Source: Candidatus Babelota bacterium (GTDB lineage Bacteria; Babelota; Babeliae; Babelales; GCA-2401785). From it: 50,381 nucleotides of DNA. The translations under genes were made by a program, and so were the position numbers. Positions within the stretch are counted from its first letter, which is position 1. Each line of letters starts with the position of its first letter. Shown in pieces: positions 3,430 through 27,459 of this stretch. The DNA lies in assembly GCA_016871815.1 (NCBI GenBank), contig VHBT01000005.1, positions 1 through 50,381 on the forward strand, given 5' to 3'. A model generated the notes under the pieces. It saw only the letters and a program-made list of their open reading frames with translations. It did no database searches and had not been told where the DNA came from.

Positions 3430-3514
3430 AGTTATTTTTCACAAACTGTTCTGCGCGGCGCAAAAAGCAACTAGCATGATTTTGACAGCATGAATGATTC
3501 ATGAAGGTGTTTGC

Positions 3515-12622: not shown

Positions 12623-12958
12623 ATGAAACCGTTTATATTATCGCTTGCATCTATTTTGTTGTGCGCAACAACAGCTCTTCAATCTTTTTATCCTCCGCAA
12701 GGATCTCTCCCCTTAGCTTCTCGGGCTATACTTAGATCGACTCCCCATGGTCATGAATTTCTTTTTACGCGCCAAGAAGATCACTCATTCGAAATGGCAA
12801 TATCACATGATTTTCTTAAAGAAGGTAAATTCCATCATCCTTATTGCTTCAAATGCGAAACATATCTTGCTTGCGGAGAATGTGGCTGGACAGAAATTAC
12901 CGAAGAAATTCCAACACCAAAGCCTCGCCGCGACACAGAAAATGGAGAGAATGAATAA
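12623..12958 (+). CDS. Small secreted Cys-containing protein
   Basis: Signal peptide MKPFILSLASILLCATTALQ. Paired CxxC motifs (CFKC...CGEC) suggest a zinc-knuckle or disulfide motif. Confidence 0.6.
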   Translation: MKPFILSLASILLCATTALQSFYPPQGSLPLASRAILRSTPHGHEFLFTRQEDHSFEMAISHDFLKEGKFHHPYCFKCETYLACGECGWTEITEEIPTPKPRRDTENGENE

Positions 12959-12992: not shown

Positions 12993-14072
12993 TTAAACAA
13001 CTGCCTCATCAGCTGCTGAATCTTCATTATTTGATTCATTATCTGAATATGAGTGACAACCATATAAATCCAAAACAGATCCAGCTGGTACCTCAAATCT
13101 AACGCCAGCGTACTGAATACCCTGTTCTTCACAAACTGAGTCAGAAGAAAAAGTTACATTTCCCGTAGGAACAATAATTCCGGAATCAAAACACGGTCCA
13201 TTTTTCCAAGCATACAAAGATGAGTCATTAAAAAACATTCTTGACGTGTTATCAAAAAGAACAAAATTGTTTTTTTGACTGCTGCGATATTCAAGAAACA
13301 AATTTTTATCAAACATTACACTGGAATTTGGCATAACAATTAATTGTGCCTTATCGCAAAAAACAAATGAACGCTCTTCTCCTTGCACCAATACATCACC
13401 AACAATCGCTACAGCTCCAGCAGTTACATAACAATTGCCCTCAAGACTCAGCTTTAAATTATTAAACGTAACAACCGAATCATCTCCCAACGAAATTGGC
13501 AATCTTCCCGCGCGAGTATTTTTGATAAAAAAATTTGAAAACTCTTTAAACTCAACTTCAGCACCATTTGCAATCCTAATGACCTTTTCCTTATTACTAT
13601 CAAAAAGCAATTTCATCGCATATCCACAGCCGTGAATAACCGCATGTTTTTTGACGCCAACAAAAGACCAGTCCATAGTAAGTTTTTCATCACTTCCTAA
13701 AAAAAACGTAACATTGTCCCCAAATTCTAAATTAATTCTCCCTGTACCTGATTTTATCTTCCAAGAATTAAAATTTTTAAGCGTTATATTTTTTATCAAA
13801 AGTGACGGCGTTGCATAATGCCCAGAATTAGTACCCTTTCCTTCTATCCACAAGCCAGTGCCTACCATTACCGACAGATGAGAAAAATCGAATTCCTGCC
13901 CGTTGCCATCCCATTCAAAATCAGCACAATCCGGACTGTAAAAAGTAATTATACTCTGTCCCCAAAGATTCTTTTTTTCTGTATACGTTGAAACAATTGC
14001 GCCCATAAAGCAGGGAAACAAGCCTAACCCTAACAAAACAACTGCGAACAAAATACGATTTTTCATAAACAA
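12993..14072 (-). CDS. Secreted repeat protein, shortest member of the 4-gene paralog array (one repeat unit)
   Basis: Signal peptide MFMKNRILFAVVLLGLGLF. WDGNGQEFDF...IKNITLKNFNS...LEFGDNVTF aligns with the C-terminal unit of the 728-aa neighbour (WDGGGYTMQF...LQNIVLKDFNS...IVFGNNVTI). Only 23 nt separate it from the upstream gene. Confidence 0.75.
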   Translation of the reverse strand: MFMKNRILFAVVLLGLGLFPCFMGAIVSTYTEKKNLWGQSIITFYSPDCADFEWDGNGQEFDFSHLSVMVGTGLWIEGKGTNSGHYATPSLLIKNITLKNFNSWKIKSGTGRINLEFGDNVTFFLGSDEKLTMDWSFVGVKKHAVIHGCGYAMKLLFDSNKEKVIRIANGAEVEFKEFSNFFIKNTRAGRLPISLGDDSVVTFNNLKLSLEGNCYVTAGAVAIVGDVLVQGEERSFVFCDKAQLIVMPNSSVMFDKNLFLEYRSSQKNNFVLFDNTSRMFFNDSSLYAWKNGPCFDSGIIVPTGNVTFSSDSVCEEQGIQYAGVRFEVPAGSVLDLYGCHSYSDNESNNEDSAADEAVV

Positions 14073-14095
14073 TTTTCTTTCACAAAAAACAGCCC

Positions 14096-16282
14096 CTAGC
14101 TGTAAGCTATTGCTCCATACACGTCCATCATTCCACCCGCCAGCAATTCAACATACAAACCACTAGTTGTGTCGAACACGAGAGCCTCTGCCCTAACAGC
14201 CCCCTCGGCGACAACTGTAACTTTATCATCAATAACCACAACTCCCGTTTGCAATCGTGGCGCCGTCATCGTTGCATACAACGTACATCCACTCAAATAC
14301 AATCTTGAAGTTTGATTTGCAAAAGTTAATTGCGTCTTAGAAGGAGCTACTGGCCCAGGAGTACAAAAACCAGATGAATCGTAACTAAAGGTAACATTTC
14401 GATCAACAAATAATGTTGATGCCGATTGGATAGCCATTGTGCCGTTTGATGAAAACGCAAATGTATACCCTTTCCCCTTCAAATAAACATCATTGTAAAT
14501 ATTAATGCTTCCTGCAGACAGGGTATAATTGCCAGATAAATTAAGATGCGTATTTCTTAAATTAATTACTCCTGAATGATCTGCACACCGAATTAAATTT
14601 GATGAAGCAACATAGGAATTAGTTGAATCATATAAACCCGTAATTACATCTGGTGTAACACCACCACTCAGACCCATAACATGAAGATCTTGCAAGTTAA
14701 CCGTTACACTTTGTCCAACTGCACCGGTACCCAACATGATACCAACCTTATTACTGCCCCCAAGCCCCGCAAACGAAAGATTCCGACCATTTCCTCGAAT
14801 CGTGGATACACCCTCGCGTCCTGTAAACGACCAGGTATAAGAAAGATCTTCGTTATCCCCAAGCTCAATAGTGACATTATTCCCAAAAACAATCGATGCA
14901 TTTGACAGTAATGTAACCGCTTGTGAATTAAAATCTTTAAGCACTATGTTTTGCAACGTAACCGTTTTTCCTGCAGCAACAGATATAGATCCCGCCTGAG
15001 CATCTCCTCGAGCAAACTGCATGGTATAACCACCACCGTCCCATGTTATATTTGAAGCATTTGCTCCTCTAAAGTTCAGAACACGATCTGGAACACTAAA
15101 TCCTTCATTTTGACGTTGAATATACACAGAATTATCAACATAAAATTTTGAACCGTAAGTCAAACCACTTGGTCGAAGCATTAATCGACCACCATTAAGC
15201 GCAATAAGCTGTGCACCATCTGGAGACGCGGGGGTTATTGGTTTTAAATCTGGAAAAGAAAGCGTATCGTACTCTAGAGTCGTTGCATCAATTGTTGCTA
15301 TCGCTCCAACAGCAACTGTTAGTTTATTAGTTCCGGTAACAATCATTGAATTTGCGCCATAAAAATATAAATTTCCCTGGGTGAATGTATAATTTCCATT
15401 TAACTGCAAGACGGTATTTGAAAGCGAAAGCGTCGAGTTTGAGTCACACATCACAATTGTTCCTTGAATCTCAGACAGACCCTTAATAACAACATCTGTG
15501 ATGCCAAGGCCAACGCCCGCCTGAACAACAAGCGAACCGCCAAGACTCAAATCCAGCACATTTCCATTACCCTGCAAAACTGCAACACTATTATCTGGAC
15601 CGAAGTACCACATTCCCGTAAGTGTTAATGCCGCATTTAATGTCATATCTGTCGCACTTAAGAAATATAAATTTCCACCCCAAATAGATGATTTTCCGGG
15701 GAATTGCAACGTATGCGAATTGATATCAACAATTCCATCACCACACAACATACAATCATCCCCGATCGAAAGCGTGTCTTCTAAAACAACTCGACCGCCA
15801 TTCAAATAAACATCGTGATTTAATTTATTTTGAATCGAAAATTTGAGTTCTGAGGCTTGATCTTGAATGACGATTGGATCTAAGAACCGAGGAGTTCCTT
15901 CTATTAAATTATCTTGCCCAGACACAACCAACCCAACAAATGACATCCCTGGCTGCGCTCGCATCTGAGAAGCCCCTGAAAGAACTAACTGCCCTCCGAT
16001 TGCTGCCGTATTAAACTGCCCTGACCACTGAGCACTCACCCCATTTTTTTCGATCGTTCCTTCTGCAAAAACAATAGGAAGCCCTTGCAATTGAGAGAGA
16101 GCATTATCACTTATCTCCAAAACACCCTGAAAATTTTCAATAGCCGATCGAAGAACCAATCGAGCATTTGGATTTTTGATTCGCAATCGAGAATCTTTAC
16201 CCGCAAACGAAATAACAGCCCCACAAGAAAAACCTTGTAAAATACACCACACAAAAAGCAAGAACCTTAAAGCACTACGCAT
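14096..16282 (-). CDS. Secreted beta-helix-like repeat protein (paralog array member, 728 aa)
   Basis: Signal peptide. N-terminal ISFAGKDSRLRIKNP parallels LIFAGKEARLKLLDP of the next paralog. LNGGRVVLED motif and repeated NxY-F-xGxLxFxG motifs. Confidence 0.8.
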   Translation of the reverse strand: MRSALRFLLFVWCILQGFSCGAVISFAGKDSRLRIKNPNARLVLRSAIENFQGVLEISDNALSQLQGLPIVFAEGTIEKNGVSAQWSGQFNTAAIGGQLVLSGASQMRAQPGMSFVGLVVSGQDNLIEGTPRFLDPIVIQDQASELKFSIQNKLNHDVYLNGGRVVLEDTLSIGDDCMLCGDGIVDINSHTLQFPGKSSIWGGNLYFLSATDMTLNAALTLTGMWYFGPDNSVAVLQGNGNVLDLSLGGSLVVQAGVGLGITDVVIKGLSEIQGTIVMCDSNSTLSLSNTVLQLNGNYTFTQGNLYFYGANSMIVTGTNKLTVAVGAIATIDATTLEYDTLSFPDLKPITPASPDGAQLIALNGGRLMLRPSGLTYGSKFYVDNSVYIQRQNEGFSVPDRVLNFRGANASNITWDGGGYTMQFARGDAQAGSISVAAGKTVTLQNIVLKDFNSQAVTLLSNASIVFGNNVTIELGDNEDLSYTWSFTGREGVSTIRGNGRNLSFAGLGGSNKVGIMLGTGAVGQSVTVNLQDLHVMGLSGGVTPDVITGLYDSTNSYVASSNLIRCADHSGVINLRNTHLNLSGNYTLSAGSINIYNDVYLKGKGYTFAFSSNGTMAIQSASTLFVDRNVTFSYDSSGFCTPGPVAPSKTQLTFANQTSRLYLSGCTLYATMTAPRLQTGVVVIDDKVTVVAEGAVRAEALVFDTTSGLYVELLAGGMMDVYGAIAYS

Positions 16283-16410
16283 ATGCCTAAATGCTCCACA
16301 TTTTCAATATAAAAAAGCCTGTGAGAAACTAGTGCGATCAAGATGAAACAGTCAACACATCTCGAGAAGTAAAAAAGAATTAAAATCATTCATAATCATG
16401 AAAAAAATAA

Positions 16411-16487
16411 ATACCAGGAACGATCAAACGTCGAACCTCTAAGCCTCACGCAAGGCGCCCCCCGGCCAACCCTCCTTGGAGTGGTAT
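16411..16487 (-). other. GC-rich 77-nt element bounded by inverted ATACCA/TGGTAT; candidate complex terminator or structured RNA
   Basis: ATACCA (16411-16416) and TGGTAT (16482-16487) are complementary. The interior is strikingly GC-rich for this genome (GGCGCCCCCCGGCC). On the minus strand it is followed by TTATTTTTTT and lies 71 nt past the stop of the 927-aa gene. Confidence 0.3.
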
Positions 16488-16558
16488 AAAAAATAGCAAT
16501 TCTCTTTAAAAAAAATCAATAAGAGCAAAAAAGGAATATAAACAAAATGAATTATTTT

Positions 16559-19342
16559 TCACGCTTCAACATCACCATCTATGTCAAAAACCCCGCCAAG
16601 CTGAACCTTTACATCTGCGCTGGCATCAACAATTATTTTTGCGTTCGAATTGCTTAAATCTGTTTTGAATGCAGAATCGCCATCAATAAAAACCATTCCC
16701 CTGCGCAAGATAAGCCTTGAGGAATTTGATATTAAATTTGCACTATGCAAAAACAATCGAGATGTCACATCTTCCAGCACCAAACCATTACCAACTGAAA
16801 AAGGATTGTCATACACCAACGACACAGAATTATCTAAATATAATTGTGCATTTTGCCTAATGATACACCCTTCAGATGATTTGAAATTGAATTTTTTATT
16901 TGCTCCTGTAAATGTTACATCACCAAAAATATCTAAATGCCCCTGCAAAAAATCAACGTCTCCCGTCATAAAGATCGAACTCGAGGCAAATTGAATTCTT
17001 GATTGAGCATCAAGATTTGCGAGCCTTGTACCAGAAACAGACATCAAATAAGTATTTACAATACGCAACACAGCACCGCCAGAAACGCGTATGCCAGCAG
17101 TAGAAATAGCTCCAATATCAAGCATCTTGTAACGCCCATCAATCACTGTATTTCCAACAATTTCATACGTATTAGATAAAAAAGCATCATCCGCTAATTG
17201 CAAAACAACTCCTTCACCAAAAGAAATCGACGCTCCTAAGCCCAATTCGATATGCTCTGGCAAGAAATCACGCAAAACAAGATTTTCAATCAACACTCTT
17301 TTTCCCTCAGGAATAACAATTACCCCTGAGACTTTTCCAGGCATCTGTAAAACATAGCCATTTCCATTCAAAACGATCGTTGATTCAAAAGAGTTATTTC
17401 CTCTAAAAATCATTCGCCTGCTCGTTCCAAGCACCTCTGAAGTAATTAAAGAATTTCTATTTTGATCCAAAATGATATCTCCCTCTCGATACAACGCAGA
17501 AAAAGATCTCACGATGCCGCCATTTAAAGATACATAATTATTGTCATCTGCAATTGATGGACGAATATTTCTAACGTCTGGAGATGACTGCGTATCGTAT
17601 AACACCGAAATGCCGTCAACAATTAACTGAGCATCATTATCAAACGATAAAATGTTGGCACCTGTCACAACCTTTGAAGACACGTTTGAAAATTTTATCT
17701 TTCCGGTAGAAAAGGAATAACTACTATCTAAATACAAATCAACATCAATAAATGATGCCATCGCCTGCGTTCCCAAAAAAGACAATTGCCCCGAAGATTG
17801 ACCAAGCCCCTTTAAAACCATATTTATTAAACGAACTGTTTTTTCATTGTTTACAATAAATCCACCCAAAGAGCTCATTTGAACAACAGATCCAGAACCA
17901 CCAAAGGTACAATTGCCTATACATTTAATAGGATACGTTAACACCGAATCTCCACCAAACATAACATAGGTATCATCATCAAATAAAACACGGCTTCCAA
18001 CACCCAATGAAATATGTTCAGGATAAAAACCCTCAAAAGAAATATTCTTGAAAATCACCGTCTGACCATCTGCCACAGAAATAACAGGTCTTTTTACTTG
18101 CGGAAATTTTAATGAAAAACCTTTGCCATCAAGAGATATTGGTTGCGGACCAGGCAAGGAAAAACTCATAGTTCTATTCACGGTCAAAAATTCTGATTGG
18201 ATCAAGATATTCGATCGATTTGAATACAGGAGAGCAGGTCCAGATGCGTCTTGTACTTTTGCCAAAATCCTTGCACCCGCAATAGATTGAATATTTTGAG
18301 TCCCTGCAACAATCCCCACAAAATTAGATGCCATTAATGCATCAAACATAAAATCAACACCATTTAAAACCAATACAGCTTTATTAACAAAACCTAAACT
18401 ATTTTCACCAACCACGACCCTAGATGATTCAGATCTAACCTCAACAGATCCATAGGAAAAAGTAAAACTAGAATTCAGCTCAAGCAAAGATCCAACAAGG
18501 ACCAATCGCGAATCATCATTTCCTAAAATAATTTTACCCGACCCCAAACCCCTCAACGTAACATTCTTAAGGATAAGCTGATTTCCAGGTGCAACAAACA
18601 ATGATCCATTTGTTATATCAAGAACATTATCTGCACCATCTATAATTGACATTCCTTGAGACGAACTAAATGTTAATGTTCCACTTACCTCTACACATTC
18701 TCTCAACTGCAAAATAGAAAGATCTTTCAAAAATAATGTGCTCAATTCTGTTTTTTGCTCAGGCAGTGTCAAAATATTAAATTGCCCATCGACAGAACCC
18801 CTACCAACCAAACTAGCCGCCTGAGCAAATTGTAAATCTTGCCCAAGAATAACCTGTCCTCCATTTAATAAAACAGACTGATTTAACTGATTAACAAGTG
18901 ATATCCTCACAGAAGTATTCAAATCAGCTAATCGTATAGGATGATTAAAGAAAGAAGCACCCTGAATTTCGTTTCCCTGTCCTGAAATATAGATGGGCAA
19001 TAGAACACTAGTACCATTTAAACTTATTACATGATTTCCAGATAATCTTAAGACATCACTACTCTGCGGATCAAAAACACCTGAAAAATCGCCACATGCA
19101 TCAATTCCCTCAATGCAGCCATTCTGAAAAATAATCGTGGCAGAACCCTGAATTAAATCAGCTCGAGAATTTCCGCGACACAGCGTTCCACTAAATCCTT
19201 CTATCGGTGTGTTAACAATAAATTGAGTCGCCGGATCTAATAATTTTAAACGAGCTTCTTTTCCTGCAAAAATAAGTTCTGCATGAAGCACAGAAGAGCA
19301 CATTAACAAGAAAAAACAGACTAAAATTTTACTATCTTGCAC
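16559..19342 (-). CDS. Secreted beta-helix-like repeat protein (paralog array member, 927 aa)
   Basis: GTG start and signal peptide ILVCFFLLMCSSVLHA. Internal ~250-aa super-repeat, e.g. FKNISFEGFYPEHISLGVGS vs IENLVLRDFLPEHIELGLGAS, 254 aa apart. Confidence 0.8.
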   Translation of the reverse strand: MQDSKILVCFFLLMCSSVLHAELIFAGKEARLKLLDPATQFIVNTPIEGFSGTLCRGNSRADLIQGSATIIFQNGCIEGIDACGDFSGVFDPQSSDVLRLSGNHVISLNGTSVLLPIYISGQGNEIQGASFFNHPIRLADLNTSVRISLVNQLNQSVLLNGGQVILGQDLQFAQAASLVGRGSVDGQFNILTLPEQKTELSTLFLKDLSILQLRECVEVSGTLTFSSSQGMSIIDGADNVLDITNGSLFVAPGNQLILKNVTLRGLGSGKIILGNDDSRLVLVGSLLELNSSFTFSYGSVEVRSESSRVVVGENSLGFVNKAVLVLNGVDFMFDALMASNFVGIVAGTQNIQSIAGARILAKVQDASGPALLYSNRSNILIQSEFLTVNRTMSFSLPGPQPISLDGKGFSLKFPQVKRPVISVADGQTVIFKNISFEGFYPEHISLGVGSRVLFDDDTYVMFGGDSVLTYPIKCIGNCTFGGSGSVVQMSSLGGFIVNNEKTVRLINMVLKGLGQSSGQLSFLGTQAMASFIDVDLYLDSSYSFSTGKIKFSNVSSKVVTGANILSFDNDAQLIVDGISVLYDTQSSPDVRNIRPSIADDNNYVSLNGGIVRSFSALYREGDIILDQNRNSLITSEVLGTSRRMIFRGNNSFESTIVLNGNGYVLQMPGKVSGVIVIPEGKRVLIENLVLRDFLPEHIELGLGASISFGEGVVLQLADDAFLSNTYEIVGNTVIDGRYKMLDIGAISTAGIRVSGGAVLRIVNTYLMSVSGTRLANLDAQSRIQFASSSIFMTGDVDFLQGHLDIFGDVTFTGANKKFNFKSSEGCIIRQNAQLYLDNSVSLVYDNPFSVGNGLVLEDVTSRLFLHSANLISNSSRLILRRGMVFIDGDSAFKTDLSNSNAKIIVDASADVKVQLGGVFDIDGDVEA

Positions 19343-19451
19343 AGACTACAACCGATTTTTTTTCCCAAACAACATGCGAGTGCATGGTATCCAGGACCGG
19401 AAGAATCACGCAAGATATTATAACCCGTAAATTACGAAGGCTTGATCTTTT

Positions 19452-22262
19452 TCAATAATTTACAACCTCACCAACAACTTCTAATGTAGCTTTATAATCA
19501 ACTTGAATATCAAATGTTTTATCGTTTATCAAAATGCCAGAAGACTCAACAGCACTTCCGCCATCAAGCACACAATGCCCAAATAATTTCATCAGTCCAG
19601 AATGAAGTCTCATTATATTTTTTCTTACGACTAAAGTTGCATCATACAAAATCAAAACCGAAGACTTATCTTCAAAAACAATTCTACCTCGATCTTCAGG
19701 CGCAAATAAAAAAGTTGATCCTTGATAAAAAGAGACACTGGACTGTCGCTTGATGGTACATAAGCCTGACGATAAAAAAGCAAAGGTATTTTTATATGTT
19801 GTTATAAAATTTGAACCCTGAAAAATCAAATCACCGTTCAAGATGGAATAATCTTTATCCAAAAAACACTCCATATCCTGTAAAACACATTTAGCTCCAA
19901 ATGATAGATCTACAGGAGTTAATTCATTTGAAAGACCTCCAAATTTACCATTTTTAAATGTCACCGTAGCCCCAGAAGCAACAGAACAGCTAACTCCTGG
20001 CTCAAATCGAAGATCATGTCCCTGTAAGTCAAAAATGACGTTTCCTGTAATGTTCATAGGAAGAGACAAAACAATATCTCTATTTAATTTTATAACAACC
20101 CCATCGCCCAAAGAAATTGAAGAATTTTTTTCCAAATTAAATATTTCACAGGAAAAATCACGAAATTCAATATTGCAAAAATGAACGTTTTTATTAGCTG
20201 AAACAAAAATGGATGGTTCAGGAAGATACGGCAAGATAAGTGAATACCCATTTCCCGTAACAGTGCACTCATCTCCCGATCCAAGAATACTTAAATGACG
20301 CTGACTTGAGATAGCCTCATCATGTTGCAGCACATACTCACTTGTTGTTATTTCAAGACTTCCCTGTTCTTGAACATCCCCAACAACCCTAACGGCACCT
20401 TCTTGTAAACATTGTATATTCAGCCCATCATGAGATCGTGGTTGAATATTAGCAGTATCTGGAAACGCCAATGGATCATAAAAAAGATTTACGCCATCAA
20501 CAATACAAACACCTTTTTTTATACATGAAAAAGTATTTTTTCCGGTAACAACAAAAGAATCACTCCCTACAAATTTCAGAACACCCTTTTCATGGTCATA
20601 GTTATCAGAAAGCAACAACGTTACATTCTTAAAAATTGCTGTGGATGTATCCGACTCAAAAACAAATCGTCCATAATTATTTCCAAGACCCGCAATTGTC
20701 ATATTATGAAATGTTACAGTTGCTCCACTTCGAACAAATATTTTTCCATAACCAACTAAATTTAACGCTTCACCAAAACCTGAAATCGTAACATTTCCAT
20801 CAATCGTAAGAGTATAATTCAAATCAACGGTACGGCTTATATTTAATAAAGCATTATCACCTAAAGCAAAATTTGAATTAGGATCCAATTTTATAGACGC
20901 AGGAGAAAAATTATTAATCTCCACATTTCTTAGCACAGCAGATTTTCCAGTAGGAACATGAATCAACCCAGAGTCAACCCCTACATCAACAAAATTAAGT
21001 ATTAAATTTGTTCCATCAAGAATTAATGAATTAGATTTTAGGCCTCTATAAAAAAGCTTTCTTTCTTTTGTTAAATCAAATCTTCCAGACCGAACAGAAT
21101 ATGAATTATCTATTGTCAGTGATAAATCAGCATAAACCTTGCTAATCGAAACAACTTTTCCGCCATTTTTAACAATTATCTCAGCAGGCTCTATCAATTG
21201 AATGCCGTTATTGTTAGTCGATGATAACGGATCAAAAAAAAGCGAAATCGCATCTACTAACAATTTACATTCTTCGTTAAAATAACAAACTCTTTCTCCC
21301 ACTATTACTGTAGAATTACGACCTATAAATGAAAGATTACCCCTTGAAAAATAATAATCTGTCGCCAACTCAAGCGTACACCCAATAAAAGTCAGAGAAG
21401 CTGTCGAATCCTGGAGAATAATTGCGCCCTTGCCCAATTTTTTAATATTTACATTTTCCATAGTCAATGAACAACCTGAAGCAATATACACTGTTCCACC
21501 TAAAGACAGATCAAGATCGCAGCCCTGACCGGCAATAAAAAAACTTTCACGCGCTCCATTCTCTGCGGAGAAAGTAATTTTGCCAGAAAGAGACAACGTA
21601 TCCTCAAGCACAAGCCCCCCTGATTGAACAAAAACTACTGATCCTTGCCCAACAGACCCTCCCAACGAGAGGAACAATGATGCACCATTTAAAATTACCG
21701 TCCCTGGCCCTTGTATGGTTTTTCCATTATCCATTCGTAAAGAAGACAGAAGGGTCAAACGCCCCCCATTAAGTGAAATACTCGAAAAAAGTCTATTTTC
21801 AAGATATAACGACAGAGAAGATCCTGAATCGCGCAAAAAAATTCCCTCTCGCGCGTCAATCCAACCAGAAAGAACAACCCCCCCACCCAAAATTGAGATT
21901 TTTTTTAATAAACAACCAGCATCGCCAGACAGGCTGTCTCCATTTTGCATAAAAAGCTCACCCTGAAGACTTGGATCAAAAGAACCAGAAAACGTTCCAC
22001 TCAAGCCCCCAATTTCGATTTTCCCATCCTTCAAGGTTAAAACACCACCCCGCAAGGCATTAGTGCCGGGAATCGTTGCATCAACAGATCCACCCAAGAC
22101 AGATAACGGTTGATGTATCAAGATCCCAGAAGAGGGAGTTAAAAAAGCAATTTTACTTTCGGCACTGGTTACAATTATTTTAGAAGAAAGCGAAAACGCA
22201 AAACCTATAAAAAAGCTTAAAAAATATAGTTTTTTTATCACAAAAGACACCCAATACTTCAT
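19452..22262 (-). CDS. Secreted beta-helix-like repeat protein (paralog array member, 936 aa)
   Basis: Hydrophobic N-terminus. LNGGRLTLLSS motif. Repeat motifs LRNVEINNFSPASIKL and FCNIEFRDFSCEIFNL. SGATVTFHNMTIAGLG and SGATVTFKNGKFGGLS. Confidence 0.8.
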   Translation of the reverse strand: MKYWVSFVIKKLYFLSFFIGFAFSLSSKIIVTSAESKIAFLTPSSGILIHQPLSVLGGSVDATIPGTNALRGGVLTLKDGKIEIGGLSGTFSGSFDPSLQGELFMQNGDSLSGDAGCLLKKISILGGGVVLSGWIDAREGIFLRDSGSSLSLYLENRLFSSISLNGGRLTLLSSLRMDNGKTIQGPGTVILNGASLFLSLGGSVGQGSVVFVQSGGLVLEDTLSLSGKITFSAENGARESFFIAGQGCDLDLSLGGTVYIASGCSLTMENVNIKKLGKGAIILQDSTASLTFIGCTLELATDYYFSRGNLSFIGRNSTVIVGERVCYFNEECKLLVDAISLFFDPLSSTNNNGIQLIEPAEIIVKNGGKVVSISKVYADLSLTIDNSYSVRSGRFDLTKERKLFYRGLKSNSLILDGTNLILNFVDVGVDSGLIHVPTGKSAVLRNVEINNFSPASIKLDPNSNFALGDNALLNISRTVDLNYTLTIDGNVTISGFGEALNLVGYGKIFVRSGATVTFHNMTIAGLGNNYGRFVFESDTSTAIFKNVTLLLSDNYDHEKGVLKFVGSDSFVVTGKNTFSCIKKGVCIVDGVNLFYDPLAFPDTANIQPRSHDGLNIQCLQEGAVRVVGDVQEQGSLEITTSEYVLQHDEAISSQRHLSILGSGDECTVTGNGYSLILPYLPEPSIFVSANKNVHFCNIEFRDFSCEIFNLEKNSSISLGDGVVIKLNRDIVLSLPMNITGNVIFDLQGHDLRFEPGVSCSVASGATVTFKNGKFGGLSNELTPVDLSFGAKCVLQDMECFLDKDYSILNGDLIFQGSNFITTYKNTFAFLSSGLCTIKRQSSVSFYQGSTFLFAPEDRGRIVFEDKSSVLILYDATLVVRKNIMRLHSGLMKLFGHCVLDGGSAVESSGILINDKTFDIQVDYKATLEVVGEVVNY

Positions 22263-22503
22263 TTTTCTTTCCTAACCTGCCGTTAGACTATTTTTTTTAT
22301 TTTCAAGGCAAAAACCTACATTAAAAGCAAAAAAAGATGTTTAAATGACGCCTTTGCCAAAAAAATCATCTGATGGTACTCTGAGATTAGTCTGTGATTA
22401 TAGAAAATCATTGTTTCAAAAAAATAGAGTGTTTTACTGGGGCGTCCTTAATTGTTGTAATTGAGTGCCCCGGATCGGGTTCTCGCAACATTTAAGGAGT
22501 GGT

Positions 22504-24273
22504 ATGGATACACCTACCCAAAGTGAACTATTGTTCAATTTATTAGGCATTTCAGAGCAAGTTTTAAAAGCTCTTACAGCTATGGGATATAAAAATCCTA
22601 CAGAAATTCAAGCAAAATCGATTCCGGTTTTGCTCCAAAAAAAAGATTTTATCGGTCAAGCTCGTACCGGAACAGGAAAAACAGTTGCCTTTGGTATTCC
22701 TGTTGTCGAATCGATCGACGCTCAGAACAAAGCTACTCAAGCTATCATCCTTTGCCCAACAAGAGAATTAGCCCTCCAAGTCGCAAAACAACTTGAAGAC
22801 GTTGCTCAATTTATCTCAGGCGTTAAAGTTGCAACACTTGTCGGTGGACAGCCAATCGAACCTCAAATGCGTTCATTGCGATTTGGCGCACAAATTGTTG
22901 TTGGAACACCTGGTCGTGTTATCGATCACCTTGATAGAAAAACATTACAACTCGATCAAGTACATTTTGCTGTGCTTGACGAAGCTGATGAGATGCTTGA
23001 TATGGGCTTTAGAGATGATATCGAAACAATCTTGAAAAAGACCCCTGCAACTCGTCAAACCGCTCTTTTCTCGGCGACAATGCCAACAGAAATCAAAAAC
23101 CTTGCTAAGGAATACCAAAAAAATCCTGAACATGTGAACTTGGTTGTCAAAGACGTTGCAAAGCCGCTTATCGAACAAATTTATTACGAAATTCCAAATC
23201 CAAGAAAATCAGACCTTCTTGCTAGCCTTCTTGATATCGATCAACCTGCTCTTTCGATCGCTTTTTGTAATACAATTCAACGCGTAGACGAATTGACCAG
23301 AAAACTCCAGGAAGCTGGTTACTCTGCTGATGCTCTTCATGGAGATATGAGACAATCTCGTAGAGACCGTGTTATGGATAGATTCAGAACCGGCGATTGC
23401 AAAATCCTTGTTGCAACAGACGTTGCTGCTCGTGGAATTGACGTTGCAGGAATTGATGTTGTCTTTAACGTTGACCTTCCTCTTGATCAAGAAAATTATG
23501 TACACCGTATCGGAAGAACCGGTCGTGCAGGAAGAACAGGAAAAGCGTACAGCTTTGTTGGTGGCCGAGACAGAATGCTCCTTAAGACTATTGCACGCAA
23601 TGCAAATGGCGCGCTTGAACTTCGTCAAGTTCCATCGCAAGAAGCAGTAGAATCTTCTCGTGCAGAAAAAATCTTTACTAAAATTGCAACCGACACAAAA
23701 CCAGAATCTCACCTTGAAAAATATATTGCTCTTATCAAGGCAAATCTTGGTGAAGTTGGCGATCCTGTTAAATTAGCTGCTTCATTGCTGAAAAACATCA
23801 TCCATAAAGGCAAGCCAATTCAAACAGACTTCAGCCATTCAGACGACTTCCGCAGAGAAGGTGGACGTAAATCTTTTGGCTCGCGTGAAGACAGACCAGA
23901 GCGTTCATTCAACAGAAGAAGAGAATTTGGCAATCGCGAAGACAGACCAGAACGTTCATTCGGCAACCGTGAAGATCGTCCAGAAAGATCGTTTGGAAAA
24001 CGTGAAGACAGACCATTCAGAGGTGAAGGTCGCCCATTCACTCCACGTTCAGATTTTGGCGATCGACCAAGAAAGTCCTTTGAAGATAAAGGAAATTCAT
24101 TTGGAAATCGTGAATTTGCTCCTCGTAGAGAAGGTAGATCACGATTTGAAGGTAATGACTCATTTGGTTCAGGACGTAGCAACTGGAAAAAGAACGATGA
24201 CCATGGCTCACAACCTCGTTTTGGATCACGACGTCAATCAGACTTTTCCTCAAGTCGTCGCGAACAAGCGTAA
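22504..24273 (+). CDS. deaD: DEAD-box ATP-dependent RNA helicase with R/E/D/G/F-rich repeat tail
   Basis: Q-motif/Walker A region AQARTGTGKT, then PTRELA, DEAD (VLDEADEML), SAT, ARGID and HRIGRTGRAG. I prefer the ATG at 22504 (AAGGAG at 22494-22499) over the track GTG at 22465. Confidence 0.9.
   Translation: MDTPTQSELLFNLLGISEQVLKALTAMGYKNPTEIQAKSIPVLLQKKDFIGQARTGTGKTVAFGIPVVESIDAQNKATQAIILCPTRELALQVAKQLEDVAQFISGVKVATLVGGQPIEPQMRSLRFGAQIVVGTPGRVIDHLDRKTLQLDQVHFAVLDEADEMLDMGFRDDIETILKKTPATRQTALFSATMPTEIKNLAKEYQKNPEHVNLVVKDVAKPLIEQIYYEIPNPRKSDLLASLLDIDQPALSIAFCNTIQRVDELTRKLQEAGYSADALHGDMRQSRRDRVMDRFRTGDCKILVATDVAARGIDVAGIDVVFNVDLPLDQENYVHRIGRTGRAGRTGKAYSFVGGRDRMLLKTIARNANGALELRQVPSQEAVESSRAEKIFTKIATDTKPESHLEKYIALIKANLGEVGDPVKLAASLLKNIIHKGKPIQTDFSHSDDFRREGGRKSFGSREDRPERSFNRRREFGNREDRPERSFGNREDRPERSFGKREDRPFRGEGRPFTPRSDFGDRPRKSFEDKGNSFGNREFAPRREGRSRFEGNDSFGSGRSNWKKNDDHGSQPRFGSRRQSDFSSSRREQA
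23884..24016 (+). repeat. In-frame tandem repeat encoding REDRPERSF units
   Basis: CGTGAAGACAGACCAGAGCGTTCATTC-like 27-nt cores start at 23884, 23935, 23968 and 24001 (the last is partial), separated by 6-24 nt. Confidence 0.8.
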
Positions 24274-24282
24274 TTAACTTTT

Positions 24283-24357
24283 AAAGCGGCGCATTGCTTG
24301 CTACACTGTACCAACCAAAAAATGGTACTTGGAGCCTAGTAAATGCGCCGCTTTTTT
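24283..24357 (+). promoter_or_regulatory. 13-bp perfect inverted repeat (terminator-like) whose 3' arm contains the start codon of the next gene
   Basis: AAAGCGGCGCATT (24283-24295) is the exact reverse complement of AATGCGCCGCTTT (24342-24354). Inner hairpin GTACCA (24308-24313) / TGGTAC (24323-24328). GGAG lies in the loop, the ATG is at 24343-24345, and a T-run follows at 24352-24357. Confidence 0.55.
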
Positions 24358-26256
24358 ATTTTAAAAAAACACCTATTTTTATTTATTATCGCCAGCCTTG
24401 CAACTTTATTTTGTGCTGGATATCACAAAACAATAACAAATAAAACCGCCTCTAGAGATATCTACCCCGTGGTTATTATCGGGGGAGGAATTGGCGGACT
24501 CAGTGCAAGCATTTTTCTTGCCTCAAAAAATATTTCCTCTTTGGTGCTAGAGGGAGAACTGCCTGGAGGTCAACTTACACTTTCAAGTTCTGTGAGAAAT
24601 TGGCCAAGCATACCCGATCTTCCCGGCGAAGAAATTGTAAAACAAATAAGAAATCATGCAGAAAAGCTAAATGTAAGAATAATTTCTACAAACGCCTCCG
24701 AAATTTCCCGCCAAGGTGATTATTTTCATATCAGCTCACCCCAAGGCATATATAAAGCATTTAATGTTATTATCGCAACCGGAACAACCCCAAAAAAATT
24801 AAATATTCCGGGAGAAGATACCTTCTGGGGTAACGGCATCAGCGATTGTGCTATCTGCGATGGTGGATTATATCCCCAAAAAACAGTTGTAGTTGTTGGT
24901 GGTGGGCAATCCGCAATTGAAGAGGCTTTACACCTCAGCACGATCGCTAAAAAAGTTATTATTGTGGTGAGAAAATCAGCGCTCAAGTCTCACGAAGCGT
25001 CCCGTCTTGCATCACTAAAAAGCAAACCGAATATTGTGATTGTATACGATTCTATTGTTACCAGTGCACAAGGAATAGACTCAAAACTTAACTCAATCAC
25101 TACCTTGAATATAAAAACACAAGAACAGTCAACGCTTGCAGTTGATGGTCTTTTTTTAGCGATTGGCTCAACCCCCAACAGTAACCTGTTTAAAGATTTA
25201 GTCGAATGTGACTTGAATGGATTTATCAAAACAGGTCGTTATGGAAAAACATCCTGCAATGGAATTTTTGCTATCGGTGATGTTACCCACTCAAAATACC
25301 GACAGGCTATTATGGTTGCAGAACATGCAGCAATAACGGCAAACGCTCTTGCGGCCCAAATCGATAAATCAAAAAGCTTTTATGCATATTCTGAAGATAA
25401 TGCCACTATTTTAGCGCCACAAAAAATAGGGCCTCAAACAGCTAAAGCCGATTACCATGTAGTATTTGTAAATGCAAACGCAGCCTCATACACTGCAGCA
25501 ATCTACCTACAACACGCAGGTTACAAAACAGCAATCATTAAAACATCGCAACCAGCCAACCACAATATTATTTGGCCCGGAGATAATTCAGCAACTCAAA
25601 AAACTATTTTGAATTCGTTAGAAAAACACGCGCTTTCAGCAGGATCTAAACTTATAGAAGATACAGTTGTTAATGAAGACTACAGCGCATATCCGTATGC
25701 CTTAGAGTTAAAAAAAACAAGTAGCATGGTAACAAGTTATTGTCTTATTGACGCTGAAAACGGAGTGCCTTTTGATTCTGAAGGACTCCAAGAAGTTCAA
25801 TTATGCGGCGTTGGGGCACGAATTGGATTACAAATTAGTGAAAAACTTCAGGAATACCCTATCATTCCTACTAACCAAACTTTCGAAAAAACTTCCACCA
25901 ACGTTGAACAACCTAAAAAAATAACTCGACCAGCAACAATTCCCCATATAAAAACAATTAAAGAACTCAACACCATCCTAAAAGAAAATGATGCAGTCTT
26001 TATCGATTGCTATGCTCATTGGTGTCCACCCTGCAAAAGACTTAAACCACTGCTCGAAAAAATATATGCCGAAAATAGGTATCCTCAAGTGTATATTGCC
26101 TGCGTAGATGTTGACGAAGCTCAGGAAATTGCCGAAGAACTAGGCGTGCAAAGTCTTCCAACACTACTCAGCTTTAAGCGCTCTAAACTTACCGGTAAAT
26201 CACTTGGGTTTAAAAACGAGTCAGAACTCAGCCTGTTAATCGAAAAACTTTTATAA
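24343..26256 (+). CDS. trxB: Thioredoxin reductase / degenerate FAD-domain remnant / thioredoxin fusion with N-terminal hydrophobic export or anchor segment
   Basis: VVIIGGGIGGLSAS (FAD GxGxxG), redox CAICDG (nt 24847-24858), VVVVGGGQSAIEEA (NAD(P)H GxGxxA), GIFAIGDV. Middle part VVFVNANAASYTAAIY resembles a TrxR N-terminus with a ruined GxGxxG. C-terminal Trx fold has WCPPC (nt 26020-26034). N-terminus MRRFFILKKHLFLFIIASLATLF. Confidence 0.85.
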   Translation: MRRFFILKKHLFLFIIASLATLFCAGYHKTITNKTASRDIYPVVIIGGGIGGLSASIFLASKNISSLVLEGELPGGQLTLSSSVRNWPSIPDLPGEEIVKQIRNHAEKLNVRIISTNASEISRQGDYFHISSPQGIYKAFNVIIATGTTPKKLNIPGEDTFWGNGISDCAICDGGLYPQKTVVVVGGGQSAIEEALHLSTIAKKVIIVVRKSALKSHEASRLASLKSKPNIVIVYDSIVTSAQGIDSKLNSITTLNIKTQEQSTLAVDGLFLAIGSTPNSNLFKDLVECDLNGFIKTGRYGKTSCNGIFAIGDVTHSKYRQAIMVAEHAAITANALAAQIDKSKSFYAYSEDNATILAPQKIGPQTAKADYHVVFVNANAASYTAAIYLQHAGYKTAIIKTSQPANHNIIWPGDNSATQKTILNSLEKHALSAGSKLIEDTVVNEDYSAYPYALELKKTSSMVTSYCLIDAENGVPFDSEGLQEVQLCGVGARIGLQISEKLQEYPIIPTNQTFEKTSTNVEQPKKITRPATIPHIKTIKELNTILKENDAVFIDCYAHWCPPCKRLKPLLEKIYAENRYPQVYIACVDVDEAQEIAEELGVQSLPTLLSFKRSKLTGKSLGFKNESELSLLIEKLL

Positions 26257-26340: not shown

Positions 26341-27459
26341 ATGCAATTTCATTGTAAATATTTTCTGTTCACCATATCTCTTTTTTTCTGCACTTCATCT
26401 GCACCTATAATCGTTTGCGACCAGCTCATGACTCTATCACCCTCGACACTTAGATTTATTGTTCATCCAGCAGGCGAAGTTATTGCCGCTCAAGAAATAG
26501 CTGGCGACAGTACACAACTAACTTTTTTTCAATATGAACAAGCAACACCTGAAGGCCGATCTGCCGTGCTGAACAGATTATGCAGCGTTCCAGATGAATC
26601 CGCACAGGGAATTAATTGGGGTTGGACACACAGCAAACTATTATTTGCAACATCAAGCAATAGTGGAAAATTCTCTATCTACAAAATAGAACCAACAGAG
26701 GATAACTCTTCGGCAACCGCTATCAAAATCATCGAAGAGGAACAAGGCGAACAAGCAGTGTTAATCGCATGGAACAACAACAACGACATTATTGCTCTTG
26801 CAACAAGTACACACATTAAAATGTATGTTTTTGACGAAGAAAGCGAATTACCCCTTCGATGTGTTTTTTCAAAAAAACACGATCTTACAAACGTTAAATT
26901 TTTAGGATGGTCATCAAACGATTTATATTTAAGCCTTGGCAACAAAAAAACGTTGTTGTTATGGCAAACCAGAAATCAATCTGGCATTCTTAAATTAACC
27001 CCCTACATCAATAAAAGAATAGACCAAACCTTATCTCAAGCATCTGTTGGAGATATAAAAGACATCGCATGGGGAAAGAGCAGCTCTCAATCAATTGCAA
27101 TTCTGGGAAAAAAAATGATCGTTATTAACATTCCAGAATTAAACCCTGAGTTTCCAAGAATTATCCAAAATATCGCACCATCAGTTCTTTCATTTATAGC
27201 CTGGAACCAAACGCCTTCAAGCATGGGAGAGAAGCAAGAAGTTATTGCTACAACAAAAACTGGTATCGAATATCGCGTATATACGGTCACCGACAACAGC
27301 TTGTCTTACAACTCAACTCCTCATAGCCTTTTACCTCCAAGCTCGCCAGAAGAAAGTAATCCACTGCAACAATTTAGCACAGTACCAGCAACTACTCACA
27401 TTGTTGCAGATGCGACAGAAGTTGAACTGGTAAACAAATTAATAGCCGCAAAAAACTAA
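26341..27459 (+). CDS. Secreted WD40-like beta-propeller protein
   Basis: Signal peptide MQFHCKYFLFTISLFFCTSSA. At least five blade-like repeats of the pattern (I/V)xW-6/8-(L/I)A-x-6/8-(I/V)x(I/V)(Y/W/F), e.g. VLIAWNNNNDIIALATSTHIKMYVF and VKFLGWSSNDLYLSLGNKKTLLLWQ. Confidence 0.6.
   Translation: MQFHCKYFLFTISLFFCTSSAPIIVCDQLMTLSPSTLRFIVHPAGEVIAAQEIAGDSTQLTFFQYEQATPEGRSAVLNRLCSVPDESAQGINWGWTHSKLLFATSSNSGKFSIYKIEPTEDNSSATAIKIIEEEQGEQAVLIAWNNNNDIIALATSTHIKMYVFDEESELPLRCVFSKKHDLTNVKFLGWSSNDLYLSLGNKKTLLLWQTRNQSGILKLTPYINKRIDQTLSQASVGDIKDIAWGKSSSQSIAILGKKMIVINIPELNPEFPRIIQNIAPSVLSFIAWNQTPSSMGEKQEVIATTKTGIEYRVYTVTDNSLSYNSTPHSLLPPSSPEESNPLQQFSTVPATTHIVADATEVELVNKLIAAKN

What the first reader, a model, noticed from the sequence alone, without database searches (positions are those of the whole stretch)
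12993..22262. 9.3-kb array of four co-oriented paralogous secreted repeat proteins (359/728/927/936 aa) with no translocator domain
Four consecutive minus-strand genes occupy about 18% of the window. All have N-terminal signal-like segments and share motifs. The shared motifs are an N-terminal (I/L)xFAGK(D/E)xRL(R/K) motif, LNGG(R/Q)(V/L)xL, a unit X of the form (D/N)GxG(Y/F)x(L/M)xF ... N(I/V)x(L/F)x(D/N/G)Fxxxx(I/V)xL ... (F/L)G(D/E/N)(N/G/D), and a unit Y of the form GxGxxLxx...G(A/S)xVT(F/L)xN...GL(G/S)... (N/D)xxYx(F/L)xxGx(L/I)xFxG...VVTGxN...VDG(V/I)x(L/F)xYD. Protein sizes follow unit arithmetic: 359 aa is about one X-Y unit. 728 aa is about the N-domain plus Y plus one X-Y unit. 927 and 936 aa are about the N-domain plus Y plus two X-Y units. 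The alternating hydrophobic/Gly/Asn pattern suggests a parallel beta-helix like adhesin or autotransporter passengers. However, the repeat units run to the very C-termini, leaving no room for a ~250-aa beta-barrel. I also do not see Chlamydia Pmp GGA(I/L/V)/FxxN tetrapeptide arrays. This may be a lineage-specific surface or secreted protein family using an unidentified export route.
Basis: partly seen in the sequence, partly recalled or inferred. Interest (0 to 1): 0.7.

Follow-up and report, generated by a model that had tools for sequence, protein, structure and literature searches.

The report
Unnamed beta-helix protein family in Dependentiae
Four neighbouring genes of an uncultured protist-parasite bacterium (phylum Dependentiae/TM6) encode signal-peptide-bearing rod-like beta-helix proteins built from 1-3 copies of a ~250-residue module; they belong to a large, unnamed family that probably acts in the cell envelope or on the host, but its location, export route and function are untested.

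Summary
Four co-oriented minus-strand genes (359/728/927/936 aa) are true paralogs (C vs D E=1e-74). Each has an N-terminal signal-like segment and 1, 2, 3 and 3 copies of a ~250-aa module. AlphaFold2 models of the 927- and 728-aa proteins (pLDDT 83 and 85) are almost all short beta-strands. Foldseek returns only right-handed beta-helix proteins (Ag43, Hbp, PL6 lyases, tailspikes) at low TM-scores, so the fold class is supported and no specific relative is found.

No Pfam, NCBIfam or PDB sequence match exists. There is no autotransporter barrel, TPS domain or Pmp motif array.

New here:
- The host is a Dependentiae (TM6/Babeliales) bacterium from lake metagenomes.
- The family is large: 2,347 50%-identity clusters, up to 4,562 aa, and every member with a source name is a "hypothetical protein".
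- It usually lies in tandem arrays, and this array is syntenic next to gyrA in a related genome.
- Half of 20 long relatives carry a WD40 beta-propeller. In the two mapped precisely it sits in one loop of the last module, next to the least conserved 50-aa block of the 728-aa protein.

Best reading: Sec-exported modular beta-helix scaffolds for host interaction, possibly released by the phylum's conserved type II secretion system. Location, route and function are inferred. It is an undescribed family of a familiar kind.

The parts
19452..22262 (-). D936: 936-aa paralog with a signal-like N-terminus, an N-terminal region and three ~250-aa beta-helix modules
   Evidence: ORF. 27% identity to C927 over the full length, E=1e-74. 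Internal repeats 243-355/493-607 and 434-576/685-825. B-family profile hits 9-504 and 235-719. 55% identical to its syntenic ortholog in L001.
22191..22262 (-). D936 signal-like N-terminus (about aa 1-24, MKYWVSFVIKKLYFLSFFIGFAFS)
   Evidence: Hydropathy heuristic. Not run through SignalP.
16559..19342 (-). C927: 927-aa paralog with a signal-like N-terminus, an N-terminal region and three modules
   Evidence: AF2 model pLDDT 82.7, 94 short strands. Nine orthologs at 32-66% identity.
19280..19342 (-). C927 signal-like N-terminus (about aa 1-21, ...SSVLHA|E)
19244..19276 (-). Conserved motif at the mature N-terminus of C927 (aa 23-33, LIFAGKEARLK)
   Evidence: A related motif sits at median position 25 in 51 of 172 family proteins, against 1.4% of other 70-aa windows.
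18245..19045 (-). C927 module 1 (about aa 100-366)
   Evidence: Bounded by the low-pLDDT linker 365-367. Repeat offsets.
17492..18244 (-). C927 module 2 (about aa 367-617)
   Evidence: Lies between low-pLDDT linkers 365-367 and 615-620. Matches module 3 at an offset of ~250 aa.
16562..17491 (-). C927 module 3 plus the C-terminal end (about aa 618-927)
   Evidence: Strands run to the last residues at pLDDT ~90, with no room for a barrel.
14096..16282 (-). B728: 728-aa paralog with a signal-like N-terminus, an N-terminal region and two modules
   Evidence: AF2 model pLDDT 84.7. About 30 orthologs down to 27% identity.
16217..16282 (-). B728 signal-like N-terminus (about aa 1-22)
16181..16213 (-). 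Conserved motif at the mature N-terminus of B728 (aa 24-34, ISFAGKDSRLR)
14570..14653 (-). B728 variable loop (about aa 544-571), at the position where relatives carry an inserted WD40 beta-propeller
   Evidence: pLDDT below 50 at 544-559. The adjacent block 501-550 is only 44% identical to the ortholog, against 64-90% elsewhere. The insertion point in the L014 1,039-aa protein maps to profile positions 556-566, which are B728 residues 561-571.
12993..14072 (-). A359: 359-aa single-module paralog starting 23 nt downstream of B728, with an acidic C-terminal tail
   Evidence: It matches B residues 385-728 at E=3e-29 and profile positions 397-721. An A-type gene directly follows a B-type gene in L001, L002 and L016.
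13998..14072 (-). A359 signal-like N-terminus (about aa 1-25) ending in a Cys

Best explanation
The four genes are a tandem array of paralogs from a large, unnamed protein family of the phylum Dependentiae (TM6/Babeliales), whose known members are obligate intracellular parasites of protists.

Each protein has a Sec-type signal peptide, a short N-terminal region and one (A), two (B) or three (C, D) ~250-residue right-handed beta-helix modules. The family grows by duplicating modules. In some paralogs a WD40 beta-propeller is inserted into one loop of the last module.

Most likely mechanism:
1. The proteins cross the inner membrane through Sec and fold in the periplasm into rigid, elongated beta-helix rods.
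2. They reach the cell surface or the medium without a type V barrel or a TPS partner. The most plausible route is the type II secretion system that is core to this phylum. Release in outer-membrane vesicles is an alternative.
3. They act as scaffolds or adhesins that present variable loops, or WD40 heads, to host (protist) ligands during attachment, uptake or intracellular life.

Shown here: paralogy, modular repeat structure, signal-like N-termini, predicted beta-helix fold, absence of known translocator domains, family size, tandem-array habit, synteny and the WD40 insertions.

Inferred: Sec cleavage, the route across the outer membrane, surface or extracellular location, and the binding function.
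For: Paralogy and the ~250-aa module.

Signal-like N-termini: all four window proteins and 120 of 136 family representatives.

AF2 models: pLDDT 82.7 and 84.7, about 48% of residues in short strands (median 4 residues, starts 8 apart), low-confidence linkers at module junctions. Hydrophobic autocorrelation peaks at lag 7-8, z up to 5.1.

Foldseek: only right-handed beta-helix proteins are returned. The best are Ag43 7koh (E=3.9e-4, prob 0.77) and 4kh3 (prob 0.84).

No barrel, TPS, T9SS or LPXTG domain in the four proteins or in 20 long relatives.

Host lineage: the named GyrA relatives are Candidatus Babeliales or Dependentiae. One family member is labelled Candidatus Dependentiae and another locus is labelled candidate division TM6.

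Family size: 2,347 clusters at E<=1e-3 and 1,303 at E<=1e-30.

Tandem arrays occur in most loci. The same four-gene array lies between the DEAD-box helicase and gyrA in GCA_044358825.1.

WD40 propellers: 10 of 20 long members. In two L014 proteins the propeller was mapped precisely to a loop of the last module. That site lies next to B728's least conserved 50-aa block.

A and D are the fastest-diverging genes of the syntenic region, at 50% and 55% identity against 62-93% for neighbours.

Literature: a T2SS with two gspD copies is core to TM6, and WD40 proteins are viewed there as host-interaction domains (PMC4776705). In Chromulinavorax destructans 44% of CDS have signal peptides and putative outer-membrane vesicles were seen (PMC6561590).

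Established knowledge: right-handed beta-helix pectate lyases of Dickeya and Pectobacterium are classical Sec plus T2SS substrates.
Against: - No experimental or expression data. No RNA run holds the locus.
- Signal peptides rest on a hydropathy heuristic, not a trained predictor.
- Foldseek TM-scores are low (<=0.25) and pTM is 0.44-0.50, so only the fold class is supported and the arrangement between modules is uncertain.
- No T2SS gene is in the window. Its presence in this organism rests on the literature for the phylum.
- B728 diverges no faster than its neighbours (78%), so not all paralogs look like fast-evolving surface antigens.
- Conserved columns are mostly Gly, Asn, Asp and hydrophobic residues, which fits a structural role but does not prove binding.
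Confidence: 0.6

Rival explanations
1. Periplasmic or envelope structural proteins. The proteins cross only the inner membrane and form part of the cell-envelope architecture (a coat, a tether or an S-layer-like lattice) of a bacterium with an unusual outer membrane, rather than acting on the host.
For: Only a Sec-type signal is evident, and no outer-membrane translocation device was found. The S-layer protein RsaA appears among weak Foldseek hits, with the highest TMq of the list at 0.18-0.19. B728 is as conserved as the housekeeping neighbours. The array is in stable synteny next to gyrA. C. destructans is reported to lack LPS biosynthesis genes (PMC6561590).
Against: Copy number and module number vary strongly between relatives, from 350 aa to more than 4,500 aa. 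WD40 insertions and a variable loop suit ligand binding better than a fixed lattice. The RsaA match is not significant (E>0.1).
Confidence: 0.2
2. Secreted polysaccharide-active enzymes (lyases or glycosidases of the pectin-lyase-like fold) that degrade host or prey glycans.
For: Foldseek lists PL6 alginate lyases, pectate lyases, a polygalacturonase and phage tailspike depolymerases. Two distant family members hit Pfam Pectate_lyase_5 weakly. This fold is a classical T2SS cargo (established knowledge).
Against: All these matches have E>=0.03 and TM<=0.2. No Pfam lyase or glycosidase family reaches threshold. Invariant columns in the B family are almost all Gly, Phe, Asp, Asn or Tyr with no recognisable catalytic constellation. 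Tandem repetition of the whole module up to 16 times is typical of adhesins, not enzymes. PF20585 is itself described as an adhesive domain.
Confidence: 0.1
3. A divergent type V system: passengers whose translocator is encoded elsewhere (a two-partner-like system using an Omp85 protein), or whose last module forms an unrecognised barrel.
For: The best structural matches are autotransporter passengers: Ag43, Hbp, TibA, SepA and Fap2. A motif is conserved directly after the signal peptide in 30% of members and could be a targeting signal. An Omp85/POTRA protein lies in the window at 39878-42682.
Against: No Autotransporter, TPS (Haemagg_act), ShlB or POTRA_2 hit at E<=1 or in 20 long relatives. 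The AF2 C-termini continue the solenoid at pLDDT ~90. The Omp85 gene is 17.6 kb away, has BamA-type domains and is not linked to arrays in the other loci examined. The C-terminus lacks a conserved aromatic beta-signal (33 of 136).
Confidence: 0.07

Closest known systems
Chlamydial polymorphic membrane proteins (Pmp; type Va autotransporters)
   Same: A multi-paralog, tandemly clustered family of signal-peptide-bearing predicted beta-helix proteins in an obligate intracellular bacterium. Gene number and length vary between lineages.
   Different: No C-terminal autotransporter barrel, no GGA(I/L/V) or FxxN repeat arrays (0-1 and chance level) and no PF02415 hit. The repeat here is a ~250-aa module rather than short tetrapeptide-marked coils.
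Self-associating autotransporter passengers (Ag43, TibA; PDB 7koh, 4kh3, 4q1q)
   Same: They are the best Foldseek matches (prob 0.77-0.84). They share the right-handed three-faced beta-helix rod and an adhesin-like architecture.
   Different: TM-scores are only 0.10-0.25 and sequence identity ~10%. There is no beta-barrel translocator. The organisation is modular, with low-confidence linkers between modules.
TpsA exoproteins of two-partner secretion (FHA, HMW1)
   Same: Long beta-helical secreted proteins with an N-terminal signal peptide, a conserved N-proximal region and no C-terminal barrel.
   Different: No TPS domain (PF05860) was detected and no adjacent TpsB gene is present in any locus examined.
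Type II-secreted right-handed beta-helix proteins (e.g. Pel pectate lyases of Dickeya); Pfam Beta_helix PF13229 and Pectate_lyase_5 PF20585
   Same: Sec signal plus a beta-helix fold and no dedicated translocator domain. Sub-threshold or marginal Pfam hits to PF13229 (E=0.064 for D936, 0.0065 for P0009) and to PF20585 in two distant members.
   Different: No hit reaches the Pfam threshold in the window proteins. No catalytic signature is seen. These proteins have multiple tandem modules and WD40 insertions. T2SS dependence is untested.
WD40 and ankyrin 'eukaryote-like' repeat proteins of Dependentiae (TM6)
   Same: Same phylum, often signal-peptide-bearing, and thought to mediate host interaction (PMC4776705, PMC6561590). 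Half of the long family members sampled contain a WD40 propeller.
   Different: The four window proteins have no WD40 domain. The beta-helix module itself is not mentioned in the two Dependentiae genome papers I searched by keyword.

Membership tests
Type Va autotransporter | C-terminal ~250-300-aa 12-stranded beta-barrel translocator (Pfam PF03797) | tested here: not met
   No hit at E<=1 in any of the four or at E<=1e-3 in 20 long relatives. The AF2 models continue the solenoid to the C-terminus.
Type Va autotransporter | N-terminal Sec signal peptide and a beta-helical passenger | tested here: met
   Hydrophobic N-termini (heuristic). Beta-helix fold class by AF2 and Foldseek.
Chlamydial Pmp | Multiple GGA(I/L/V) and FxxN tetrapeptide repeats (PF02415) | tested here: not met
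   GGA[ILV] occurs 0, 0, 1 and 0 times. FxxN occurs 5, 2, 4 and 1 times against 2.3, 2.1, 3.5 and 3.6 expected. No PF02415 hit.
Two-partner secretion TpsA | N-terminal TPS domain (PF05860) and a linked TpsB (ShlB/POTRA_2) gene | tested here: not met
   No Pfam hit. Neighbours are a DEAD-box helicase and gyrA, with no Omp85-type gene adjacent in the window or in L001, L002 and L012-L014. The BamA-type gene lies 17.6 kb away.
Right-handed parallel beta-helix (pectin-lyase-like fold) | Stacked three-strand coils forming a right-handed solenoid | tested here: inconclusive
   Confident AF2 models made of short strands. The top Foldseek hits are almost all right-handed beta-helix proteins. However, TM<=0.25, only one hit has E<1e-3, and Pfam Beta_helix is below threshold (13.3 bits against 25.9).
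Type II secretion substrate | Sec or Tat signal, periplasmic folding, and a T2SS (GspD secretin etc.) in the genome | not testable with these tools
   The signal-like N-terminus is met. No gsp gene is in the 50-kb window. T2SS is reported as core to TM6 (PMC4776705), but the rest of this genome is not available.
T1SS RTX, T9SS cargo, or sortase (LPXTG) substrates | C-terminal secretion or sorting domain (RTX nonapeptides, T9SS CTD, LPXTG) | tested here: not met
   No such Pfam or NCBIfam hit. The C-termini are variable last beta-strands. The N-terminal signal peptide is atypical for T1SS cargo.
Bacterial lipoprotein (considered for the A-type single-module proteins) | Lipobox [LVI][ASTVI][GAS]C at the end of the signal peptide | tested here: inconclusive
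   A Cys lies at or near the end of the hydrophobic region in A359 (LFPC), L001 (FVGC), L002 (ALFC), L033 (GGACC) and L027 (WMYCFC). None fits the canonical lipobox, and the L016 ortholog has its Cys mid-segment.

The most novel reading that the evidence does not exclude
This family is the main host-recognition apparatus of Dependentiae. It would be functionally analogous to chlamydial Pmps but independent of type V secretion. Modular beta-helix stalks are exported by a barrel-free route (T2SS-dependent surface display, or a so far unknown mechanism keyed to the conserved motif at the mature N-terminus). The stalks display exchangeable heads: variable loops, or WD40 propellers inserted at a fixed site. 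These heads would determine which protists are infected.
Probability: 0.25. Interest if true: 0.7.

Novelty: new variant of a known kind. Interest (0 to 1): 0.45.

Why it matters
Dependentiae are widespread and almost entirely uncultured parasites of protists, and how they attach to and enter hosts is unknown. A family with more than 2,300 sequence clusters has no Pfam or NCBIfam model and no source name beyond "hypothetical protein". It is arranged in arrays, expands by module duplication and accepts WD40 heads at a fixed loop. That makes it an obvious candidate for the phylum's host-interaction layer.

Defining it would:
- annotate thousands of hypothetical proteins;
- offer a comparison with Pmp, Sca and Ag43-type adhesins that lacks the type V barrel;
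- give concrete targets for localisation and host-range experiments in the few cultured species.

The general kind is familiar, however: multi-copy beta-helix proteins with signal peptides in an intracellular bacterium.

Tried and rejected
- Curated libraries. Pfam and NCBIfam scans of the four proteins gave nothing at threshold. PDB sequence and profile searches gave no hits at E<=10.
- Viral structure library. It returned only non-significant generic beta-helix hits.
- Other paralogs in the window. BLAST and two family HMMs against 33 other ORFs found none. The 924-aa and 934-aa ORFs are unrelated, and the latter is BamA.
- RNA evidence. No RNA run holds the locus.
- Promoter and terminator scan. 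Promoter-like sites were fewer than in shuffles and terminator-like sites about as many, so operon structure is unresolved.
- Rfam. Nothing in the window.
- Lipoprotein anchor for A-type proteins. A Cys recurs near the end of the signal segment but there is no canonical lipobox and one counter-example. Left open, not adopted.
- OMP-type C-terminal beta-signal. Rejected, with an aromatic residue in the last three positions in only 33 of 136.
- Metagenome scan with the A-type alignment. It found nothing. The repeat with the B-family alignment gave 21 loci.
- Coil-scale periodicity. There is no sharp ~22-28-residue peak, only the strand-scale lag of 7-8, so the coils are irregular.
- Literature. 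No searchable paper combines Dependentiae with beta-helix, and the six that combine it with adhesin do not, by title and abstract, concern such a family. Keyword searches inside two Dependentiae genome papers found no mention of autotransporters or adhesins.

Full report
**1. Observation**

The four minus-strand ORFs are at the stated coordinates: A359 at 12993-14072, B728 at 14096-16282, C927 at 16559-19342 and D936 at 19452-22262. They lie between gyrA/dprA on one side and a divergently transcribed DEAD-box helicase on the other.

All-vs-all BLASTP confirms paralogy:
- C vs D: 27% identity over the full length, E=1e-74.
- B vs C and B vs D: E=1e-45.
- A vs B residues 385-728: E=3e-29.

Tiled self-comparison shows an internal repeat of about 250 aa. 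Examples are C927 306-450 against 555-704 (E=5e-17) and D936 434-576 against 685-825 (E=2e-13).

Against a profile of 24 B-type orthologs, A covers only profile positions 397-721. C and D cover 8-507 plus 235-719, which is B plus one extra ~250-aa unit.

Two corrections are needed. The FAGK motif is present only in B and C, and LNGG is absent from A. All four have a hydrophobic N-terminal segment and no other TM-like segment (a heuristic). No other ORF in the window belongs to the family.

**2. Fold**

Nothing reaches threshold in Pfam or NCBIfam. PDB sequence and profile searches return nothing.

AlphaFold2 with ortholog alignments gave confident models: C927 with pLDDT 82.7 and pTM 0.44, and B728 with pLDDT 84.7 and pTM 0.50.
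- C927 has 94 short strands, median length 4 residues, with starts 8 residues apart, and essentially no helices.
- Low-confidence linkers fall at the module junctions: C927 365-367 and 615-620, B728 372-378.
- Strands continue to the last residues at pLDDT ~90, which leaves no room for a barrel.

Foldseek against the PDB returns almost only right-handed beta-helix proteins, including Ag43, Hbp, TibA, PL6 alginate lyases, HK620 tailspike and pectate lyases. The best are 7koh (E=3.9e-4, prob 0.77) and 4kh3 (prob 0.84). TM-scores are only 0.10-0.25. The viral library adds nothing significant.

The fold class is therefore supported, but no specific homolog is identified. Hydrophobic autocorrelation peaks at lag 7-8 (z up to 5.1). 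This fits strand-turn-strand coils, but the coils are irregular.

**3. Known families considered and excluded**

- Autotransporter: no barrel, in the four proteins or in 20 long relatives.
- Pmp: GGA[ILV] occurs 0-1 times per protein and FxxN is at chance.
- Two-partner secretion: no TPS domain, and no TpsB gene next to any array examined. The window's Omp85/POTRA gene at 39878-42682 is BamA-type and 17.6 kb away.
- T1SS, T9SS and LPXTG signals: none.
- OMP beta-signal: the C-terminus is not one.

**4. Host and origin**

GyrA's closest named relatives are Candidatus Babeliales and Candidatus Dependentiae. One family member is annotated as Candidatus Dependentiae, and one locus is labelled candidate division TM6. 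The locus occurs nearly identically in several lake-water metagenomes.

The presence of BamA indicates a diderm envelope. Cultured members of the phylum are obligate intracellular parasites of amoebae and flagellates (PMC4776705, PMC6561590).

**5. The family at large**

The word-indexed search found 9 C-type and about 30 B-type orthologs, with no source name beyond "hypothetical protein". The exhaustive profile search found 2,347 50%-identity clusters at E<=1e-3 and 1,303 at E<=1e-30. Lengths among the listed best hits run from 483 to 4,562 aa, with up to 16 matched stretches per protein. In the ten clusters looked up, the only name was "hypothetical protein".

Of 136 representatives starting with Met, 120 have a hydrophobic N-terminal segment.

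Family HMMs run over 35 fetched loci show that co-oriented tandem arrays are the rule. Examples:
- L002: five members, of 1382, 678, 347, 1311 and >1610 aa.
- L006: four members.
- L017: three members.

The window's four-gene array is conserved in order and position (helicase | D C B A | small ORF | gyrA) in GCA_044358825.1. A rearranged version near gyrA occurs in L014. An A-type single-module gene directly follows a B-type gene in the window, L001, L002 and L016, but not in L015, L017, L018 or L021.

A short motif directly after the predicted cleavage site is found at median position 25 in 51 of 172 members, against 1.4% of other 70-aa windows. Its forms include FYFAGKDSRLR, FVFSxxDSRLR and INFGERNSAIK. 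It could be a cap strand or a sorting signal.

**6. WD40 insertions and the variable loop**

Ten of 20 long members carry WD40 beta-propeller domains.

In the L014 1,039-aa protein, the family profile matches residues 4-538 (profile 6-556) and 891-1035 (profile 566-720). Pfam places the WD40 propeller from about residue 540 to at least 736 of the ~350-aa gap. A second L014 protein of 1,276 aa shows the same arrangement.

The insertion point maps to B728 residues ~561-571, directly after its low-confidence loop 544-559, and to C927 ~769-776. Compared with its L001 ortholog, B728's least conserved block is 501-550, at 44% identity against 64-90% elsewhere.

A fixed, variable loop that accepts a protein-binding domain is what one expects of a display scaffold.

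**7. Divergence**

Between the window and L001, identities are A 50%, D 55%, C 66% and B 78%. The eleven neighbouring genes range from 62% to 93%, with GyrA at 93% and the helicase at 89%. A and D are the fastest-diverging genes in the region. B is unremarkable.

**8. Mechanism**

Best-supported reading (confidence 0.6): these are Sec-exported modular beta-helix rods that act as scaffolds or adhesins in host interaction. They would reach the surface or medium by a route that needs no dedicated barrel.

The most economical candidate is the T2SS that is core to TM6 genomes, with two gspD copies (PMC4776705). T2SS classically exports folded beta-helix pectate lyases (established knowledge). Outer-membrane vesicles are an alternative, and putative ones were seen in C. 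destructans (PMC6561590).

Location, route and function are inferred, not shown. Rivals:
- a periplasmic or envelope structural role (0.2);
- glycan-degrading enzymes (0.1);
- a cryptic type V or two-partner system (0.07).

**9. Novelty and verdict**

I found no paper describing this family (keyword checks). It has no Pfam or NCBIfam model and no solved relative.

In kind it is familiar: a multi-copy family of signal-peptide-bearing beta-helix proteins in an intracellular bacterium, analogous to Pmps and Ag43-type adhesins. It differs in three ways:
- it lacks any type V element;
- it has a ~250-aa module architecture;
- it has loop-inserted WD40 propellers.

I rate it a new variant of a known kind, with interest 0.45. 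Its 'unidentified export route' may simply be T2SS.

Noticed in passing
window 37267-38235 (+): The ATP synthase c subunit gene encodes 322 aa with four consecutive ATP-synt_C hairpins. Each retains the membrane carboxylate (LIESG, LLESF, FIETP, LLESG). It follows the a-subunit gene (36433-37263). A fourfold-fused c subunit is unusual for a bacterial F-type enzyme.
   Followed up: partly
window 3494-7284 (+): Two unannotated genes (924 aa with a signal-like N-terminus, and 338 aa) lie between maf and the 154-aa gene. They are absent from the otherwise syntenic L001, where maf and the 154-aa gene are adjacent. This suggests an insertion or deletion. They have no Pfam hit and are unrelated to the beta-helix family.
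   Followed up: partly
window 12623-12958 (+); L001 16381-16746 (-): A small ORF (111 aa) lies convergent to the array, between A359 and gyrA. It has a signal-like N-terminus and a CxxC...CGEC motif. It is conserved in L001 (41% identity, E=3e-13) and has no Pfam hit.
   Followed up: partly
window 26341-27459 (+): A standalone 372-aa beta-propeller/WD40-like protein with a signal-like N-terminus (MQFHCKYFLFTISLFFCTSSAP) lies 4 kb from the array. It is conserved in L001 (62% identity). It may be relevant because relatives of the array proteins carry inserted WD40 propellers.
   Followed up: partly
window 12993-14072 (A359 N-terminus); L001, L002, L027, L033 A-type orthologs: A-type single-module proteins mostly have a Cys at or near the end of the signal-peptide hydrophobic segment (LFPC, FVGC, ALFC, GGACC, WMYCFC), but none fits the canonical lipobox and the L016 ortholog does not conform. 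This could be an atypical lipoprotein signal.
   Followed up: partly
window 22465-24273 (+): The DEAD-box helicase has a ~150-aa C-terminal low-complexity tail with repeated (G/K)(N)REDRPERSF units.
   Followed up: no
window 24343-26256 (+): A 637-aa protein with a hydrophobic N-terminus. Its L001 ortholog carries pyridine-nucleotide disulfide oxidoreductase plus thioredoxin domains, which suggests a membrane-anchored or exported TrxR-Trx fusion.
   Followed up: no
L002 (GCA_020633995.1), L003/L004, L006/L007, L009, L011: Public MAGs carrying this family are labelled Epsilonproteobacteria, Campylobacterota or Pseudomonadota. The L002 assembly's GyrA clusters with Babeliales/Dependentiae GyrA (66% identity to the window's), so these labels are probably misassignments.
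   Followed up: partly
window 1-50381: GC skew is negative across the whole window (-0.02 to -0.27) and is most extreme over the array (-0.21 to -0.27), with positive AT skew there.
   Followed up: no
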